A stretch of DNA of 41,303 nucleotides from a virus (Duplodnaviria; Caudoviricetes). The notes below the pieces were generated by a model, which was not told the DNA's origin, searched no databases, and worked only from the letters and a program-made list of their open reading frames with translations. The stretch covers positions 1-41,303 of the IMG/VR virus record IMGVR_UViG_3300035494_000238. The stretch is one strand, 5' to 3'. Positions 4,374-10,995 of the stretch are shown here, piece after piece (within the stretch, counting starts at the first letter, position 1; every line of letters starts with the position of its first letter). A program made the translations under genes and the position numbers.

Positions 4374-4423
4374 TACACAGCATGTGTAATTATAAGTCAA
4401 TACAAAGATAAACAAAATGTGTA
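4374..4423. promoter_or_regulatory. Left operator region (OL/PL): TACAC-agcat-GTGTA (4374-4388) and TAAAC-aaaat-GTGTA (4409-4423)
   Basis: Same palindrome as the three sites between cI and cro; TTGACT and TATAAT hexamers on the minus strand between the sites. Confidence 0.8.
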
Positions 4424-4574: not shown

Positions 4575-4781
4575 GTGAAAACGGCAACTAATCAGACGGA
4601 GTATCTGGCAGCTTTATTTGAAAAGGCCATAACTAATGTTAAGGCCACCGGTGCGCCTAAACGTTTAGATATCATGCTCAGCGATGAAGGATTGACAAAT
4701 TGCCCTAGCCCCTTTTCTGATGACGTGATTAATCGCATGATTGAGAACACGATTAAAAATGCTAGACCGGTTAGTTTTTAG
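4575..4781 (+). CDS. Small hypothetical cargo protein
   Basis: GGGGAG SD, GTG start; stop overlaps GTG of next frame. Confidence 0.55.
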   Translation: MKTATNQTEYLAALFEKAITNVKATGAPKRLDIMLSDEGLTNCPSPFSDDVINRMIENTIKNARPVSF

Positions 4782-5254
4782 TGACTACAAAAGACTTTTC
4801 AGCATTATTAAACAGTTTTTTAACGATTTGGATCGATGTTAGGATCAACCCGGTTAAATCGTTACAAGGTAAAGTATCTGTTAATTCTGAAAAATTGGGT
4901 CTTGTTAGTCAGGCTTTTTTTATTGGAAAGTTGGAAGTAAATAAACTACTTCACCAATAAGATGGTGCGGACGATCATAAAATAGCATGGCTATTGGTTT
5001 GCGGCATCATGCATTATGGCGATGAATTGCTTTGTTTTGATGAAAGCATTCCTACCCTAAATCACAAGTATTTATACATTGATTGCGCCTTAACGGCTTT
5101 TTGCAGTTTTTTATCTATTAATCAGTTTCAAATTGAGTCTGCTGAACCAGAACTGTATAAATCACTAAAAAACTTAGTCAGTCATTCCAATGAAAAAGAT
5201 TTTTTTATTGGTTCATTAGTTGGTTATCTGCTACAGAAAACACACCCCATCTAA
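4781..5254 (+). pseudogene. Cargo gene (~157 codons) interrupted by one in-frame TAA at 4958-4960
   Basis: GTG 4781 reads MTTKDFSALL...KLLHQ*DGADDHKIAWLLVCGIMHY... in one frame to TAA 5254. Confidence 0.6.
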
Positions 5255-5367
5255 GTCACACTTTCACCCTTGCCATAAATAATATTTATTGAAATTCTGT
5301 AATCTTGCGCAAGCTAATGCGTAATAATTTCACGGCGCTATTTAAGTGCGTGATAAAGGGGGGTAGC

Positions 5368-6015
5368 ATGGTGGATTTGGTTGTTTTAGTCGGGTTTTTA
5401 CTTATGTTCTTAATCGGGGTGATTTGGTCACTTTTGATTAAAAAGTCGCTTTTTTGGGGGGCGATAATTGATGGCGCGCTCATTGGTTTTATTGGGCTGT
5501 GGATAGGGTTAGTCATTGTTCGTTTCGCAACCGAACAGCAGGTGCATGGTGGGCTTGTATTTGCGGTAGGGTTAGCGGCCTTCGTTGCCGCTTGGTCGGT
5601 GTATGCGTTGTTTGCGAAAGCACAAAACGCCTCGTTTGTCGCCACACATGGGGTGGGATTTGTTATAGGCGTGTTGGCGTTTGTTTTAAGCGGTTTTTTG
5701 CATTTTCAGCCCACACCAAAACCCGCTGAGCCAGTTAAGCAGGAGCGTGTTCTGACACCCGCGGAGATTGAGAAAAAAGCGTTTGAGCAAGCCGCGTGGC
5801 AAGCGTATCGTGATATGTTGCGGCAACTGAAAGCACAGCTTCATGACCCAAAAAGCTATAAAGAAGTGTCTGTAACTAATCACAAATATGGCGACAAAAT
5901 CCGTATTAGAATTCAATTCCGCGCCAATAACGCCTTCGGTGTGCCAAGATTGCATAGTGCATTAGGGGAAGCCGATAAGAACGGCAATAATATGCGGATT
6001 ATTGAGGTGAATTAG
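5368..6015 (+). CDS. Multi-pass membrane protein with soluble C-terminal domain (cargo)
   Basis: About four hydrophobic segments, Pro-rich linker, then LKAQLHDPKSY...IQFRANNAFG; G-rich SD before ATG 5368. Confidence 0.75.
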   Translation: MVDLVVLVGFLLMFLIGVIWSLLIKKSLFWGAIIDGALIGFIGLWIGLVIVRFATEQQVHGGLVFAVGLAAFVAAWSVYALFAKAQNASFVATHGVGFVIGVLAFVLSGFLHFQPTPKPAEPVKQERVLTPAEIEKKAFEQAAWQAYRDMLRQLKAQLHDPKSYKEVSVTNHKYGDKIRIRIQFRANNAFGVPRLHSALGEADKNGNNMRIIEVN

Positions 6016-6049
6016 TCTTTTTTTAATTAAACTACAAGAGGATTGAACT

Positions 6050-6256
6050 ATGAGAAGCAAAGTTGTTAGCGGTAAAAATGGAATAGCAATTGTTGAATAG
6101 TTTGATGAAAACGATAATTCATTGGGTTTTTTTGTGTTCGATGAAAATGGTAACGAGACCGGGCCATTGACCTTGGCGGAGGCTGAGGAAATGGTTGACC
6201 AATTAGTTCAAAAGGTAGAGTCAAAACCTATACCAACTCCGAGCATGAGGTTTTAG
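6050..6256 (+). pseudogene. Small acidic gene (68 codons) interrupted by in-frame TAG at 6098-6100
   Basis: GAGGA SD, ATG 6050: MRSKVVSGKNGIAIVE*FDENDNSLGFFVFDENG...PSMRF*. Confidence 0.55.
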
Positions 6257-6320
6257 TTTTGTAAAGTGGCTATCTATTGTGGTTACAGTTTTCTGTAAAA
6301 AGCGGTAAAATAGCTTCGTT

Positions 6321-6914
6321 ATGGAAAGACTAAATGATTTTAAAATTAGACAGGCTTTGTTAGAGCGTTTTTCAAGTCAAGGGTTTGAGACGTTTGAAAT
6401 AATGCAAGAACTGCATGTCTGTGGTAGCCAAGCGATTGCTGATGTTGTGACTTTGAGAGATGAGTCTCATTGTTATGAAATTAAAGGCGAAACCGATAAG
6501 GTTACCCGGATTCTTAGTCAGGGTGAGCACTACAATAAAGCCTTTAGAAGAATCACATTAGTCACCACAGACAATCATTTAGAAAAAGCTTTAAAGCTGG
6601 CGCCAGAGTGGTGGGGTTTGATGTTGGCTCGTACCACGAAGGGCGGAAAAGTTATCATTACGCAGGTGCGTAAAGATAAAGTCAACCCCGAGTTTAATCC
6701 AGAAATTGCACTTTATGCGCTATGGAAAGATGAACTTTTGCAGCTTTTAGAAAATCCGTTGCCAAAAGACAAGCGTAGAAACTGCACTGATTTGTCGAAG
6801 ATGATTGCAGAAAATAATAAAAAATTAGAAGTGAGTCGCAAGGTGGCGGCAATTTTGGGATATCGACATAAAATAAAGATCGCTAACGACTATAAGTTTG
6901 TGACATATAGCTAA
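6321..6914 (+). CDS. sce7726-family PD-(D/E)XK nuclease-like protein
   Basis: LNDFKIRQAL, EL...IADV, CYEIKGETD...RILSQ...YNKAF, WWGL, LWKDEL motifs. Confidence 0.8.
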   Translation: MERLNDFKIRQALLERFSSQGFETFEIMQELHVCGSQAIADVVTLRDESHCYEIKGETDKVTRILSQGEHYNKAFRRITLVTTDNHLEKALKLAPEWWGLMLARTTKGGKVIITQVRKDKVNPEFNPEIALYALWKDELLQLLENPLPKDKRRNCTDLSKMIAENNKKLEVSRKVAAILGYRHKIKIANDYKFVTYS

Positions 6915-7983
6915 TGTGAGAACTAATCATTGGCTTAATTATATTTGAGGCCGTGAAGCCACTATTATCATTACGTTTGTCGTAGAATTTAATGTCTCCC
7001 CAGCTGTTGTTGTGTCGAAAAATTGATGGGGTTATTGCTAGTAATGCACGAATGTGATTATTGTAGTAATGGTAGTTTTTTGTGCCATTTTTTAGACGCA
7101 CTTGACCACCTCTCCAAATATGTTGAACATCTTGATGCGCGTATATCAATTTACTTACGGCGTTTAAGGCAGCAATAATATTGGGTTGCGCAAATTCTGG
7201 GGAAACTGTTGTAAAGTCCCCAATGTAGATATGTTTTTCATAGTCTTTGAGGAAGGTCGAAACCTTTTCATAAATACTGACTTCATTCCTAATCAAAAGG
7301 CGATAGTTATGCGTCGGACAGATTTCTTTGAGCATAAGCGGAATGGAAGATCCTGTGACAATAACATTTCTTACCGGGTAGTTTTTTGTGAACTTGAGGA
7401 TAAAGTCGGTAATATTATTGGCGGTTTCGTCAACCTTTGCGTCGTCCATCCAATGCGTAATACGGCAATCCATCACTAGATCAACTTGAGTGAATAAATC
7501 ATTCAGCAACCCATTAAGTGCGTCTTCAATTTCATATTCAATTGCGTAGTAGCTTGGAAAATCTTCATAGGAAATTCGCAGGGCAATAGTGTTTTCAGGC
7601 TCTTCAGATTCCGCCAAAAAATCTTTGATGGCTTGCTTGTGTTCAGGTGTTCGGTCAATACCGGTTACCGGGATGCACTGCATGGCATTGAGTTCGCGCA
7701 GGAGATACAGATAACTGTGAACACCAGCAATCAGTTGGTCATCTATGTCGTAGGTATCAACATAAATGGTTTTTCTTGAGCCAAAGTGTGTGCTTAGTTG
7801 TTTGGCGAGTTTTGGAACCTTTTCGTCCATCTTTTTTGGTTTTTTTTCGTCCTGATCTGGTGGGTAATCAAAAAAAGGAATTATCACTTCCTTAATTATC
7901 GGATCAAGCTCTTTAAGCGCCATGATTTCATTTTGCTTGAGCTTTAAAAAAGGGATGTAGAAGAGTTCATTAATGTCAGTCAT
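6883..7983 (-). CDS. Beta-protein family (sce7725 / P4 beta-like)
   Basis: N-terminal YIPFLKLKQNEIMALKEL, IPVTG, IALRI, IVTGSSIP, IGDFTTVSP, SWGD, C-terminal SHI; 366 aa. Confidence 0.8.
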   Translation of the reverse strand: MTDINELFYIPFLKLKQNEIMALKELDPIIKEVIIPFFDYPPDQDEKKPKKMDEKVPKLAKQLSTHFGSRKTIYVDTYDIDDQLIAGVHSYLYLLRELNAMQCIPVTGIDRTPEHKQAIKDFLAESEEPENTIALRISYEDFPSYYAIEYEIEDALNGLLNDLFTQVDLVMDCRITHWMDDAKVDETANNITDFILKFTKNYPVRNVIVTGSSIPLMLKEICPTHNYRLLIRNEVSIYEKVSTFLKDYEKHIYIGDFTTVSPEFAQPNIIAALNAVSKLIYAHQDVQHIWRGGQVRLKNGTKNYHYYNNHIRALLAITPSIFRHNNSWGDIKFYDKRNDNSGFTASNIIKPMISSHISYMSQTYSR

Positions 7984-8831
7984 TCATTAAATCCGAGGAT
8001 GCTTCTTGGGTTGTCCATTCGCCAAATATCAGAGAAAAGGTCAAAGCGTTTTTTGTAGTGGCCGATTAATCCAACGACAATTGATGGGTGAATACGCTGC
8101 GCCTTGGCGAAATCATAGACTTCATTTTCGGATGTGGCGTTTTTAACCGTTGTTGTGCGCCATTCAATTCGGCTAACTAAGCTGTATTTTGCGAGATTGT
8201 CGGCCTGAATTTCAATGTCTTTGGTGTGGATTTCATCTGTGGATAAGTCATCGATAATCGGTGTGTCGAGATGATCTATGTGCAAACAGATGTGAGCCAA
8301 TTCGTGCAACAAGGTAAACCAAAAATTATCCATTCTTGGGTAGCGTAAACTGTGCGCAATCACTGGGATTTTGTCGGCAAACAAAAACGCTGCACCATCG
8401 ATTTTGGTCCCGGCAATGGCTGGTAGATAAAGCAAAATAATCCCTTTATGGGCTAGAATTTCAGGGAGTTCAGGAAGAATACTTGAGTCATGACTCATTT
8501 TTGCAAGTTCTTGAACTTCTTCTCGACTAATGCCGGTAAACTCCGGCATAGCCGAATGTTCTAGAAAGAATTTTCGGGCCGCTTCTTGTGCTTGTGCCAG
8601 CCATAGAATGACTTTTGAGTCCGGTGCTGTGTCGTGTTTGCGGTAGAGTGCCTTAGACTGCATTGCACTTAAATAAAGCTTGCTTGGTTCCCAGGGGGTG
8701 ATTCGTTGTTTTTCAAGAGCCGTTGAAAACGTGTGAATAGCTTGACTGGTTTCCATAATGTCGGTCATTGATAACTCACCTCCTGAGCTATCGATGGTAA
8801 AGTCATCGTGTAATTCGGTGAGTTTACTCAT
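7980..8831 (-). CDS. ImmA/IrrE-family (M78) zinc metallopeptidase
   Basis: KIDGAAF...SLRYPRMDNFWFTLLHELAH (HExxH)...EIQADNLA. Confidence 0.88.
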   Translation of the reverse strand: MSKLTELHDDFTIDSSGGELSMTDIMETSQAIHTFSTALEKQRITPWEPSKLYLSAMQSKALYRKHDTAPDSKVILWLAQAQEAARKFFLEHSAMPEFTGISREEVQELAKMSHDSSILPELPEILAHKGIILLYLPAIAGTKIDGAAFLFADKIPVIAHSLRYPRMDNFWFTLLHELAHICLHIDHLDTPIIDDLSTDEIHTKDIEIQADNLAKYSLVSRIEWRTTTVKNATSENEVYDFAKAQRIHPSIVVGLIGHYKKRFDLFSDIWRMDNPRSILGFNE

Positions 8832-9517
8832 GATACAAAGGCTTTTGTTTGCTCTGCTGGCAGTTCGTAGAACTTTAGTACACGACCGTTTTCTGTTTTA
8901 TCGTGCTGCGCTAGATGTTGCATATTTAGTTTTCCTTCATAAAACCCTTCCGCCTGCTGAAGTGCGTGAAGGTTAAAACCATATTTTAACCCGAGTGTAT
9001 TGGCTGCATAAAGAATAATAGTTTGAAGAAGCTGAGTTCCAATCCCATTAAAGATTTTTGGCGAAATAGGGTTAGTGAGATTCCAAGGCGCTGAGGCTAG
9101 ATATTCAATGTAAAATACATCACCGCTTTCCAGTTTAGAGGTTTCTGGTTGGCGAATAAGGCAAACGCCTTGTACCCGAGATTCAGCAAGCAAGAAAAAC
9201 CAGTAATAGTTTCCACCTTTGTAATGAATGGTCTTTTTAAGCCAGTCCCAGTGCTTACTGTTTAGCTGTACACCTTGTGCTTGTTTTAGACGATCTTGCG
9301 GTTTGAGTGTCGAAAAATAATCCAATAGCGCTTTATAAAACTCTGCCCACTCCAGATCACATTGTGAGGCAAGGCTTGGGTTTTTGCCGCATAAGATTTC
9401 AAACTCTACAGTCTTACCGTCATTATTAGTCATAGCTCCGGCATGAATTTTATCTTGCTTCGGAGTTGTTTGGAGAGAACTGGTCGCAAGGTGACGGCGA
9501 ATGTCTTCAAAGGTCAT
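8828..9517 (-). CDS. GNAT-family N-acetyltransferase
   Basis: YIEYLASAPWN, acetyl-CoA loop FNGIGTQLL, LHALQQAEGFY. Confidence 0.8.
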   Translation of the reverse strand: MTFEDIRRHLATSSLQTTPKQDKIHAGAMTNNDGKTVEFEILCGKNPSLASQCDLEWAEFYKALLDYFSTLKPQDRLKQAQGVQLNSKHWDWLKKTIHYKGGNYYWFFLLAESRVQGVCLIRQPETSKLESGDVFYIEYLASAPWNLTNPISPKIFNGIGTQLLQTIILYAANTLGLKYGFNLHALQQAEGFYEGKLNMQHLAQHDKTENGRVLKFYELPAEQTKAFVS

Positions 9518-9521
9518 AGTG

Positions 9522-9932
9522 TTATTTTGCCTTGGTTAAGGTTTTGGCAATATCCAGTAACATGGCTTTTTGATCCGCAGACTGGTCTTTAATTAGTTCT
9601 ATCAAGGCTTGCTCGTACTTATCTAGTTCCATCATATTGCATGGTTGACTATCATTCTCCCCCTCATACCCCGTTGCATGGCTCGCACTAACCGGTGTGG
9701 TGGTTTCGTAGCTGGTGGCGTGGGTGGTGGAGATTCGCCCCAGTAGTTCATCAACACTGATACCAAGTCTTGTTGCTATATTAAGGTACTCAGAGGTTGG
9801 TACCCCTCTATTTTTCCAATTGGTCATTTTTTGTGATGTTGCGCCAATCTTATCGGCAATATCTTTTTTTCTAGTAAGACCAAATTTGTCATTAGCGATT
9901 CTTAGCAGATTTTCAAATACTTTCTCGTTCAT
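9522..9932 (-). CDS. cI: CI-like repressor (HTH; no S24 autopeptidase domain)
   Basis: KDIADKIGATSQKMTNWKNRGVP...LGISVDELLG; divergent from cro across three operators. Confidence 0.85.
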   Translation of the reverse strand: MNEKVFENLLRIANDKFGLTRKKDIADKIGATSQKMTNWKNRGVPTSEYLNIATRLGISVDELLGRISTTHATSYETTTPVSASHATGYEGENDSQPCNMMELDKYEQALIELIKDQSADQKAMLLDIAKTLTKAK

Positions 9933-9949
9933 GTTTGCCGCCCTTTTTA

Positions 9950-10036
9950 TACACGTTAAGTGTAAATGTTTAAAAGTTTTTAGTCATTAAACCTTTTGTG
10001 TATTTTGTTTTTGATATAGAATACACACACTGTGTA
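9950..10036. promoter_or_regulatory. Right operator region (OR): TACAC-N5-GTGTA at 9950-9964 and 10022-10036, TAAAC-N5-GTGTA at 9988-10002
   Basis: Three regularly spaced palindromes in the cI-cro intergenic region. Confidence 0.85.
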
Positions 10037-10054
10037 ATAATTGGGTTTATCAAG

Positions 10055-10249
10055 ATGGAATTTAAAGAATTTGCGCTAAAACTTGGACTTGAAGAATCAA
10101 ACATTACAGCTATCGGTGGTTTATTCGATGCCGCACCAAACACCGTTTGGAATTGGAAGCATCGGAACAGTGTGCCAGCAAAGTATGTGCTTGAGGCGAT
10201 AAACAGGAAGCTTTTCAAGCGAAGCCAAGCGGATAAAAAAGCGAGCTGA
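10055..10249 (+). CDS. cro: Cro-like repressor
   Basis: 64 aa; AIGGLFDAAPNTVWNWKHRNSVP HTH; divergent from cI. Confidence 0.75.
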   Translation: MEFKEFALKLGLEESNITAIGGLFDAAPNTVWNWKHRNSVPAKYVLEAINRKLFKRSQADKKAS

Positions 10250-10252
10250 GGC

Positions 10253-10462
10253 ATGGAAAAGAAAACCGAGGCCTTAACGGTGCATCTAAGCGACACGCTG
10301 AAAAAGCAAACGCTCGCGCTGGCCGAGTCGCAAGGGCTAACAGGAAGTGAATTTATTGGTTTTCTCATATCAAGCCACCTAGATCAGAAACGGTCTGAAT
10401 TTAGATTACTGCAACAGGTGTTTGACTTCGAGAGAACGGATGGAGGCGGTGAGAATTGCTAG
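10253..10462 (+). CDS. Ribbon-helix-helix-like DNA-binding protein
   Basis: KKTEALTVHLSDTLKKQTLALAESQGLTGSEFI pattern. Confidence 0.65.
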   Translation: MEKKTEALTVHLSDTLKKQTLALAESQGLTGSEFIGFLISSHLDQKRSEFRLLQQVFDFERTDGGGENC

Positions 10463-10561
10463 TTTTAACTTATTGAAATATATAGAAAATTACAAAAAAC
10501 TTTTTTTGTATTTTGTAATTGAAAATTTTGATTTTTTTTGCAAGAAAATAGAGCTAAAAGA

Positions 10562-10593
10562 AAACCCGCCAATGGATGGGAGTCCGGCGGTTT
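10562..10593 (+). terminator. Imperfect hairpin (tR-like)
   Basis: AAACCCGCC...GGCGGTTT inverted repeat with long loop. Confidence 0.35.
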
Positions 10594-10623
10594 GAGCATC
10601 AATTAAAGCAGAGGTAATTATAC

Positions 10624-10995
10624 ATGAGTCAGGATAGAAGCAATCACAACACCCTGAATCTAAGACAAGCCCTTGAGCGAAATGAATGGACTAGGGCTGA
10701 GATCATTAAAAACCAAAGCGGCGTTTTTATTGGCGAATTAGAGCCTTTTTTGCAGGCTTTAGGGCTGGAGGTTGTGAAGTCGCGCCCTGCACCACAAGGT
10801 TTCTATCAAAGGCTTGATGAGTCAGCAAGAAATGCGGGGATGTCACTGAGTGCTTTGGCTGAAAAGCTGGGTTTGGCGCGTTCAGCGGCTACACGCTGGC
10901 GTAACGGTGGGGGTATGTCAAGAGGTGTTTTGCTTGATGCAAGTGAGGTATTAGGTGTATCAAGCCGTTGGCTGGAGACGGGGGAGGCCGAATGA
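10624..10995 (+). CDS. Transcription regulator with C-terminal Xre HTH and possible CII-like N-terminus
   Basis: FLQALGLEVV then RLDESARNAGMSLSALAEKLGLARSAATRW...LGVSSRWLETG. Confidence 0.7.
   Translation: MSQDRSNHNTLNLRQALERNEWTRAEIIKNQSGVFIGELEPFLQALGLEVVKSRPAPQGFYQRLDESARNAGMSLSALAEKLGLARSAATRWRNGGGMSRGVLLDASEVLGVSSRWLETGEAE

What the first reader, a model, noticed from the sequence alone, without database searches (positions are those of the whole stretch)
6321..9932. Candidate new defence/TA cassette: cI - GNAT - ImmA/IrrE peptidase - Beta protein converging on an sce7726 nuclease-like gene
Seen: four tightly packed minus-strand genes (4-nt gap, then two ATGA overlaps) led by the repressor, meeting a plus-strand sce7726-like gene tail-to-tail, in AT-rich cargo between OL and OR. 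Known: genes co-transcribed with cI are expressed in lysogens (lambda rexAB); Beta is part of the P4 gop-beta-cII anti-phage locus; GNATs such as AtaT/TacT are toxins; M78 peptidases act as antitoxins or switches (RosmerTA, CapP, ImmA). Inference: a Beta/sce7726 system in which a GNAT and a peptidase replace the usual Gop/RES partner. I do not recognise this combination as a named system.
Basis: partly seen in the sequence, partly recalled or inferred. Interest (0 to 1): 0.88.

Follow-up and report, generated by a model that had tools for sequence, protein, structure and literature searches.

The report
Acetyltransferase-type TIM-B phage defence cassette
A temperate phage carries, right behind its repressor gene, a four-gene cassette (acetyltransferase, zinc peptidase, P4 Beta protein, facing nuclease-like gene) that recurs in dozens of other contigs and likely protects the lysogen against other phages; it is an untested member of a class already outlined in a 2026 preprint, and the repressor is a neighbour, not a part.

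Summary
The five genes, their spacing and the OL/OR setting are as described. The conserved unit is four genes, not five: GNAT - HTH-less M78 peptidase - Beta, plus a convergent sce7726 gene. Among 85 loci with a close GNAT relative, the peptidase follows in 80 of 82, Beta in 69 of 69 and sce7726 in 59 of 60 with room. A cI like the window's was found beside only 2 of them. Peptidase and Beta match PD-lambda-2 B and C; sce7726 matches P4 cII. Catalytic motifs are invariant. A bioRxiv preprint (10.64898/2026.10.19.760177) already describes 'TIM-B systems' with GNAT as one alternative effector, an intervening metallopeptidase and a convergent REase, by computation only. So this is a new member of a known kind. 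I found no experimental test of the GNAT version. Best mechanism: lysogen-expressed abortive defence, with the GNAT as effector held off by Beta and the peptidase (0.55). Extra finding: the slot behind cI is an exchangeable module whose crossover lies inside cI.

The parts
8828..9517 (-). GNAT-fold acetyltransferase, predicted effector; 229 aa
   Evidence: AlphaFold2 pLDDT 94.8; fold matches are GNATs, best Z 12.5, rmsd 3.0, 156 aligned, tied with other GNATs; G160 38/39, E138 39/39, Y193 39/39
7980..8831 (-). ImmA/IrrE (M78) zinc metallopeptidase without the N-terminal HTH of PD-lambda-2B; 283 aa
   Evidence: PD-Lambda-2_B profile positions 179-396 of 402, E 8e-48; H176, E177, H180, E207 each 39/39
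6883..7983 (-). P4 Beta family (TIM-B) protein, TIM barrel, predicted regulator; 366 aa
   Evidence: PF14350 E 7e-44; PD-Lambda-2_C E 1e-33; model pLDDT 89.9, TIM-barrel matches Z 10-12
6321..6914 (+). sce7726 / P4 cII family, predicted PD-(D/E)xK nuclease, convergent and overlapping Beta by 32 nt; 197 aa
   Evidence: NF033832 E 2e-41; PADLOC cll E 5e-12; E30, D41, E53, K55 each 39/39
9522..9932 (-). Phage cI-like repressor (HTH + short C-terminal helices, no S24 domain). Context, not a component; its 3' half travels with the cassette in this phage group
   Evidence: Phage_CI_repr E 0.001, no S24 hit
9950..10036 (.). Three operator-like palindromes (OR) between cI and cro (context)
4374..4423 (.). 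Two operator-like palindromes (OL) (context)
   Evidence: this stretch is diverged in the sister phage contig of run X5
10055..10249 (+). cro-like gene, divergent from cI (context)
   Evidence: weak HTH hits only

Best explanation
The four genes GNAT, HTH-less M78 peptidase, Beta and convergent sce7726 form one conserved cassette that likely acts as an abortive anti-phage system in the lysogen, with the GNAT as the predicted growth-arresting effector, likely kept off by Beta and the peptidase until infection. Shown: gene order, co-inheritance, intact catalytic motifs, folds, position behind cI. Inferred steps: (1) GNAT, peptidase and Beta are transcribed with cI, so they are on in the lysogen; (2) Beta restrains the effector, as P4 Beta restrains Gop; (3) an infection signal removes that restraint, with the peptidase cutting a protein of the cassette (it has no HTH of its own to cut); (4) the GNAT acetylates an essential host target and the cell stops growing; (5) the sce7726 nuclease is a second effector or damps the operon by convergent transcription. 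I put anti-phage function at about 0.8 and this wiring, given that, at about 0.65.
For: Conservation: M78 80 of 82, Beta 69 of 69, sce7726 59 of 60 loci with room; after clustering GNATs at 90%: 65 of 66, 56 of 56, 47 of 48. Median pairwise identity 36-45% and correlated divergence of the four proteins, Spearman 0.48-0.68. Purifying selection: dN 0.15-0.47 against dS above 2 or saturated in 6 gene pairs. Parts B and C of PD-lambda-2, where C is needed for defence (PMC9519451); gop-beta-cII protects against lambda and P1 (PMC9122126). The GNAT stands where PD-lambda-2A (HigB-like) or DUF6932 stands in related viral loci. Distant relatives of this GNAT (E about 1e-25) lie behind a small RHH gene in a toxin-antitoxin layout in the 4 distant loci I opened (L099-L102; RHH_1 hits for 3 of 4), while no such RHH was found upstream in 0 of 65 cassette loci with over 300 nt of room. 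The same slot behind cI holds other cargo in a sister phage (L165).
Against: No experiment on any GNAT version was found. In PD-lambda-2 the peptidase fusion (B) was the toxic part and A rescued it, the reverse of my wiring. The GNAT fold match to a toxin is tied with non-toxin GNATs, the cassette profile does not hit a DUF1778-paired GNAT (E 0.46), and the family is acidic (median pI 5.6). Most flanks examined are integrases, transposases and housekeeping genes, with few other defence genes (Pfam only). Promoter and terminator scans gave no more sites than shuffles, so co-transcription with cI rests on spacing alone. The 80 metagenome loci are the best 80 of 379, so the counts describe the close family only.
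Confidence: 0.55

Rival explanations
1. Same anti-phage system, reverse wiring: the peptidase is the killer and the GNAT is its antidote (by binding or acetylating it), as PD-lambda-2A rescues PD-lambda-2B.
For: [quoted passage not shown] GNAT and peptidase are translationally coupled (ATGA). The GNAT family is acidic, which fits a protein substrate.
Against: PD-lambda-2B carries an HTH that is missing here, so its toxicity may not carry over. Distant GNAT relatives sit in the toxin position behind an RHH gene.
Confidence: 0.2
2. A modification-and-cut system: GNAT and/or Beta mark host DNA and the sce7726 nuclease cuts unmarked phage DNA.
For: sce7726 is present in 59 of 60 loci with room, basic (median pI 9.5) and keeps a PD-(D/E)xK-like motif (motif name recalled). 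The preprint relates Beta to deazaguanine transglycosylases such as DpdA.
Against: Five PD-lambda-2-type viral loci show no sce7726 hit, three of them with room, and the tested PD-lambda-2 has three genes. I could not reproduce a specific transglycosylase link. The peptidase has no role in this model.
Confidence: 0.1
3. An addiction or general stress module of mobile elements that gives no phage protection.
For: Loci lie near integrases, transposases and prophage genes. Two loci have CapP-like genes nearby (L039, L056), which respond to DNA damage (PMC13373217).
Against: Both tested Beta systems protect against phage. Four genes with three intact enzyme-like sites are more than addiction needs.
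Confidence: 0.1
4. In these phages the peptidase also serves as an ImmA-like antirepressor that cuts the short C-terminal domain of cI and induces the prophage (not exclusive of defence).
For: cI has no S24 autoprotease; no antirepressor family was hit among the window ORFs scanned (not every ORF was scanned). The cI C-terminal helix stays with the cassette behind at least three different HTH types (window, X5 contig, L001/L002), at 50% identity to L002, like the cassette proteins.
Against: 83 of 85 loci have no cI like the window's. L165 has a short S24-less cI with other cargo and no M78 gene beside it. A likely ribosome-binding site of the GNAT lies in the last cI codons, which alone would keep the two linked. 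L085 has the cassette behind an S24-type repressor.
Confidence: 0.08

Closest known systems
TIM-B systems (Li, Burroughs, Aravind, bioRxiv 10.64898/2026.10.19.760177, Oct 2026; computational)
   Same: Beta/TIM-B (PF14350) with a same-strand effector, GNAT named as one of the alternatives; metallopeptidase between effector and TIM-B, with or without HTH; REase on an overlapping convergent gene (section 33).
   Different: The text does not say that GNAT, HTH-less peptidase and REase occur together as one fixed four-gene unit; Figure 6B is not held and the supplement was not seen, so it may. No test, no counts for this subtype, and no mention of the slot behind cI in the passages read.
PD-lambda-2 (Vassallo et al. 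2022, PMC9519451; tested)
   Same: Peptidase and Beta match B and C; same order effector - peptidase - Beta.
   Different: A is HigB-like there, a GNAT here (0 of 67 GNATs hit PD-Lambda-2_A or any matching PADLOC model; one stray JetA hit). B has an HTH (about 400 aa) there, none here (about 285 aa). A convergent sce7726 is nearly constant here, not detected in five PD-lambda-2-type viral loci.
P4 gop-beta-cII (Rousset et al. 2022, PMC9122126; tested)
   Same: Beta plus cII/sce7726 gene, carried by a phage-type element.
   Different: Gop is replaced by GNAT plus peptidase.
RHH-GNAT toxin-antitoxin pairs (AtaRT, TacAT; recalled) and CapH-CapP regulators
   Same: GNAT fold; distant relatives have an RHH partner and lie beside CapH/CapP; the peptidase is a remote CapP/IrrE relative.
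   Different: No RHH gene in the cassette, no close sequence match to the DUF1778-paired GNAT tested, no HTH repressor partner for the peptidase.

Membership tests
TIM-B systems | Beta/TIM-B gene (PF14350) | tested here: met
   PF14350 E 7e-44 over residues 9-360
TIM-B systems | TIM-barrel fold | tested here: met
   Model pLDDT 89.9; top matches are TIM barrels, Z 10-12.3
TIM-B systems | Specific relation to deazaguanine transglycosylases (TGT/DpdA) and their active site | tested here: inconclusive
   No transglycosylase among the rows shown; profile comparison with 25 TGT sequences gave probability 0.1%. Several acidic residues are invariant (D39, D76, D79, D172, D256).
TIM-B systems | Same-strand effector gene from the listed set (GNAT is one) | tested here: met
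   GNAT fold; Beta follows in 69 of 69 loci with room
TIM-B systems | Metallopeptidase between effector and TIM-B (optional) | tested here: met
   HExxH + E invariant in 39 of 39
TIM-B systems | Overlapping convergent REase gene (P4-type versions) | tested here: met
   32-nt overlap; 59 of 60 loci; E-D-ExK residues invariant
TIM-B systems | TIM-B negatively regulates the effector | not testable with these tools
   Needs toxicity/rescue tests
PD-lambda-2 | HigB-like component A | tested here: not met
   GNAT in that slot; no PD-Lambda-2_A hit
PD-lambda-2 | B = Xre HTH fused to peptidase | tested here: not met
   Match covers profile positions 179-396 of 402; protein is 283 aa; no HTH hit
PD-lambda-2 | C = P4 Beta-like | tested here: met
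   PD-Lambda-2_C E 1e-33
P4 gop-beta-cII | Gop toxin gene | tested here: not met
   No Gop hit among the 9 window proteins scanned; the genes upstream of Beta are the peptidase and GNAT
P4 gop-beta-cII | cII gene | tested here: met
   PADLOC cll E 5e-12
RHH-GNAT type II toxin-antitoxin | RHH antitoxin gene directly upstream | tested here: not met
   cI stands upstream here; a 3-sequence RHH profile hit 0 of 65 upstream regions (narrow profile)
RHH-GNAT type II toxin-antitoxin | Acetylates aminoacyl-tRNA | not testable with these tools
   Fold match to toxin structures is tied with other GNATs
ImmR-ImmA / CapH-CapP repressor-peptidase switch | Constant adjacent HTH repressor as substrate | tested here: not met
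   cI-like neighbour in 2 of 85 loci

The most novel reading that the evidence does not exclude
The cassette is an immune switch built from protein acetylation, proteolysis and a TIM-barrel enzyme, and in this phage group its HTH-less peptidase has taken the phage's own S24-less repressor as substrate, so that sensing a superinfecting phage both arrests the cell and induces the prophage.
Probability: 0.08. Interest if true: 0.8.

Novelty: new member of a known kind. Interest (0 to 1): 0.4.

Why it matters
It gives a complete, intact, four-gene example of an untested subtype of Beta/TIM-B defence systems that the PADLOC copy used here does not model as a system (no GNAT profile). Testing it would settle what Beta does and which part kills, a question left open by PD-lambda-2, and could show an acetyltransferase as an anti-phage effector without an RHH antitoxin. 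It also marks a rexAB-like slot in a phage group where the cargo is exchanged together with the 3' half of cI.

Tried and rejected
cI as fifth component: rejected. Complex prediction (peptidase + Beta + GNAT): the queue was full and no job ran, so nothing is known about binding. Specific link of Beta to tRNA-guanine transglycosylase: not found in three fold searches or by profile comparison; this does not exclude it. Sequence search of solved structures: nothing significant for Beta, sce7726 or GNAT; the peptidase hit 9vzy, CapP and, weakly, IrrE. Promoter/terminator scan: 11 and 4 sites against 15.3 and 5.4 in shuffles. Expression: no RNA holder listed. GNAT in the GenBank phage set: no match; Beta in phage and plasmid sets: no match by tblastn, although a truncated Beta is present in L003, so that search is insensitive. 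Charge as a clue to the GNAT substrate: weak, since a DUF1778-paired GNAT is also not basic (pI 6.4). Window cI in viral contigs: no relative. Earlier findings of the scan: none on this cassette. Literature: 8 searches showed no experimental study of a GNAT version; subscription papers are mostly not in the library.
Full report
Observation. The window is a temperate phage genome of 41,303 bases (integrase, RecT/YqaJ, replication, terminase, head and tail genes). All five ORFs are at the stated places. cI ends 4 nt before the GNAT start, GNAT/peptidase and peptidase/Beta overlap by ATGA, and Beta and sce7726 overlap tail-to-tail by 32 nt. The cassette has GC 0.409 against 0.487 and 0.522 for the arms. 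A palindrome TACACA-N3-TGTGTA occurs twice at 4374-4423 and three times at 9950-10036, 6 matches in all against 0.97 expected; these are likely OL and OR.

What the genes are. Beta: PF14350, E 7e-44, PD-Lambda-2_C; the model (pLDDT 89.9) is a TIM barrel, with many unrelated barrels tied at Z 10-12. Peptidase: PD-Lambda-2_B, E 8e-48, but only profile positions 179-396 of 402, so the HTH part is absent; H176, E177, H180 and E207 are invariant in 39 aligned cassettes. sce7726: NF033832, P4 cII profile; E30, D41, E53, K55 invariant, a PD-(D/E)xK-type pattern (name recalled). GNAT: no firm family hit, but a confident GNAT-fold model (pLDDT 94.8); best match a 'bacterial toxin' structure 7byy (Z 12.5, rmsd 3.0, 156 aligned), tied with non-toxin GNATs. 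It belongs to a family of 109 representatives at E up to 1e-10. The window protein has S87 where 36 of 39 have D.

The unit. I fetched loci with the GNAT or its alignment: 1 from genomes, 1 and 12 from viral contigs, and the best 80 of 379 from metagenomes. Eighty-five loci had a strong GNAT hit (E below 1e-20; I left out L088, a duplicate of L002, and 8 weak viral hits L089-L096); they fall into 69 clusters at 90% identity. The peptidase follows in 80 of 82 loci with at least 300 nt of room (the two misses have under 400 nt), Beta in 69 of 69 with 1,200 nt, sce7726 in 59 of 60 with 2,400 nt (L057 lacks it); by cluster 65 of 66, 56 of 56, 47 of 48. Median pairwise identities are 36-45% and divergence of the four proteins is correlated. 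dN is far below dS in six gene pairs (dS near saturation). In the reverse search with the peptidase alignment (26 viral loci), all 5 short peptidases (284-288 aa) have GNAT, Beta and sce7726, and none of the 21 long ones (373-432 aa) has a GNAT; four of the five were already known from the GNAT search and the alignment came from such cassettes, so this is only partly independent. Five long ones are PD-lambda-2 proper and one has a DUF6932 gene, Beta and sce7726. The cassette is uncommon: 2 of 401 genomes drawn from the phylum of L001's genome, one of them the seed.

cI is a neighbour. A repressor like the window's was found in 2 of 85 loci (L001, L002). Two more prophage loci have the cassette downstream of other repressors (L085, S24-type, 653 nt away; L087, one gene between). 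The closest fetched relative, L005 (GNAT 72%), has no repressor upstream. Flanks of the 21 longer loci scanned hold integrases, transposases, housekeeping genes and a few defence-type genes (ThiF with CapP-like genes in L039 and L056, an HNH gene, a Schlafen-type helicase).

The slot behind cI. A 26-kb contig of run X5 keeps 6246-9733 with 102 differences and no gaps, replaces 9733-10989 (cI HTH, OR, cro and the next genes) and has a diverged OL: a sister phage of other immunity, with the crossover near cI codon 67. L001 and L002 share only the last 32 residues of cI with the window (50%). Conversely L165 has L002's HTH (97% over residues 1-75) with another C-terminus and other cargo, and the window's HTH also occurs with another C-terminus or with an S24 domain (P0176, P0177). 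So 'cI 3' half + cargo' is exchanged as one block, a rexAB-like hotspot (rexAB recalled). An AAGG 12 nt before the GNAT start lies in the last cI codons, which would explain the linkage without any functional tie.

Mechanism. Best reading (0.55): abortive defence in the lysogen, GNAT as effector, restrained by Beta and the peptidase, with sce7726 as second effector or antisense damper. The effector role rests on the slot it fills and on distant relatives that sit behind RHH genes. The main rival (0.2) reverses the roles, because PD-lambda-2B was the toxic part. Others: mark-and-cut (0.1), addiction or stress module (0.1), peptidase as antirepressor (0.08, not exclusive). None of the steps is shown. 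No complex prediction was obtained.

What is known. PMC9519451 (passages): PD-lambda-2, HigB-like A, HTH-peptidase B, Beta-like C; B toxic, A rescues, C needed for defence. PMC9122126 (passages): gop-beta-cII protects against lambda and P1. 10.1101/2023.04.06.535777 (passages): a phage gene triggers gop-beta-cII cell death. bioRxiv 10.64898/2026.10.19.760177 (abstract, outline, passages, section 33 in full): TIM-B systems with GNAT as an alternative effector, an intervening metallopeptidase with or without HTH, and a convergent REase; computational only. Its Figure 6B is not held and I did not see its supplement; either may show this exact operon. PMC13373217, PMC11754643 and 10.1101/2024.10.26.620412 (passages) added context only. 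Eight searches showed no test of a GNAT version.

Verdict. A real, conserved, intact four-gene cassette; a new member of the TIM-B class, not PD-lambda-2 itself (A and B fail the membership test) though it likely works like it. Interest 0.4: the class is outlined, but this subtype is untested and easy to test.

Noticed in passing
window 9733-10989; run X5 contig; L001, L002, L165: Immunity exchange with the crossover inside cI: the HTH, operators and cro swap while the cI 3' half stays with the cargo; the same HTH is found with different C-termini and cargo.
   Followed up: yes
window 10624-10995 (+): This early gene ends in an HTH that is 81% identical over 62 aa to the DNA-binding domain of P0175, a repressor with the same C-terminal part as the window's cI. 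It could act on a sister phage's operators or be a recombination relic.
   Followed up: partly
L099, L100, L101, L102: Distant relatives of the GNAT occur as RHH - GNAT - CapH-like - CapP-like, in three of the four divergent from a multiubiquitin/ThiF (Bub-type) operon. The passages read on Bub regulators mention no acetyltransferase; may merit its own look.
   Followed up: partly
L165:1692-4635: Other cargo behind the same cI HTH: a 288-aa protein with HipA-like kinase motifs (recognised by eye, recalled), a 305-aa partner, and two convergent genes; no Pfam or PADLOC hit at E 0.001.
   Followed up: partly
L003:4967-6874 (Acinetobacter pittii plasmid NZ_CP014478.1): DUF6932 - long M78 peptidase - Beta truncated by IS30, directly beside blaNDM-1: a broken TIM-B locus.
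   Followed up: no
window 6050-6256 (+): A 68-codon frame with a good ribosome-binding site and an in-frame TAG at codon 17, likely a broken small gene upstream of sce7726; this stretch is replaced in the X5 contig.
   Followed up: no
window 4575-6015 (+): Three more cargo ORFs between OL and the cassette (68, 86 and 236 aa, the last with hydrophobic N-terminal segments) with no firm family hit; largely kept in the X5 contig up to 5741.
   Followed up: no
L056:4232-5688; L039:1438-5920: The cassette lies directly behind CapH/CapP-like genes (L056) or behind a ThiF gene with a CapP-like gene nearby (L039), suggesting DNA-damage control in some hosts.
   Followed up: partly
window 5300-10300: Best holders are tar pit metagenome runs (two may be the source of the window) and one sediment run.
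   Followed up: partly
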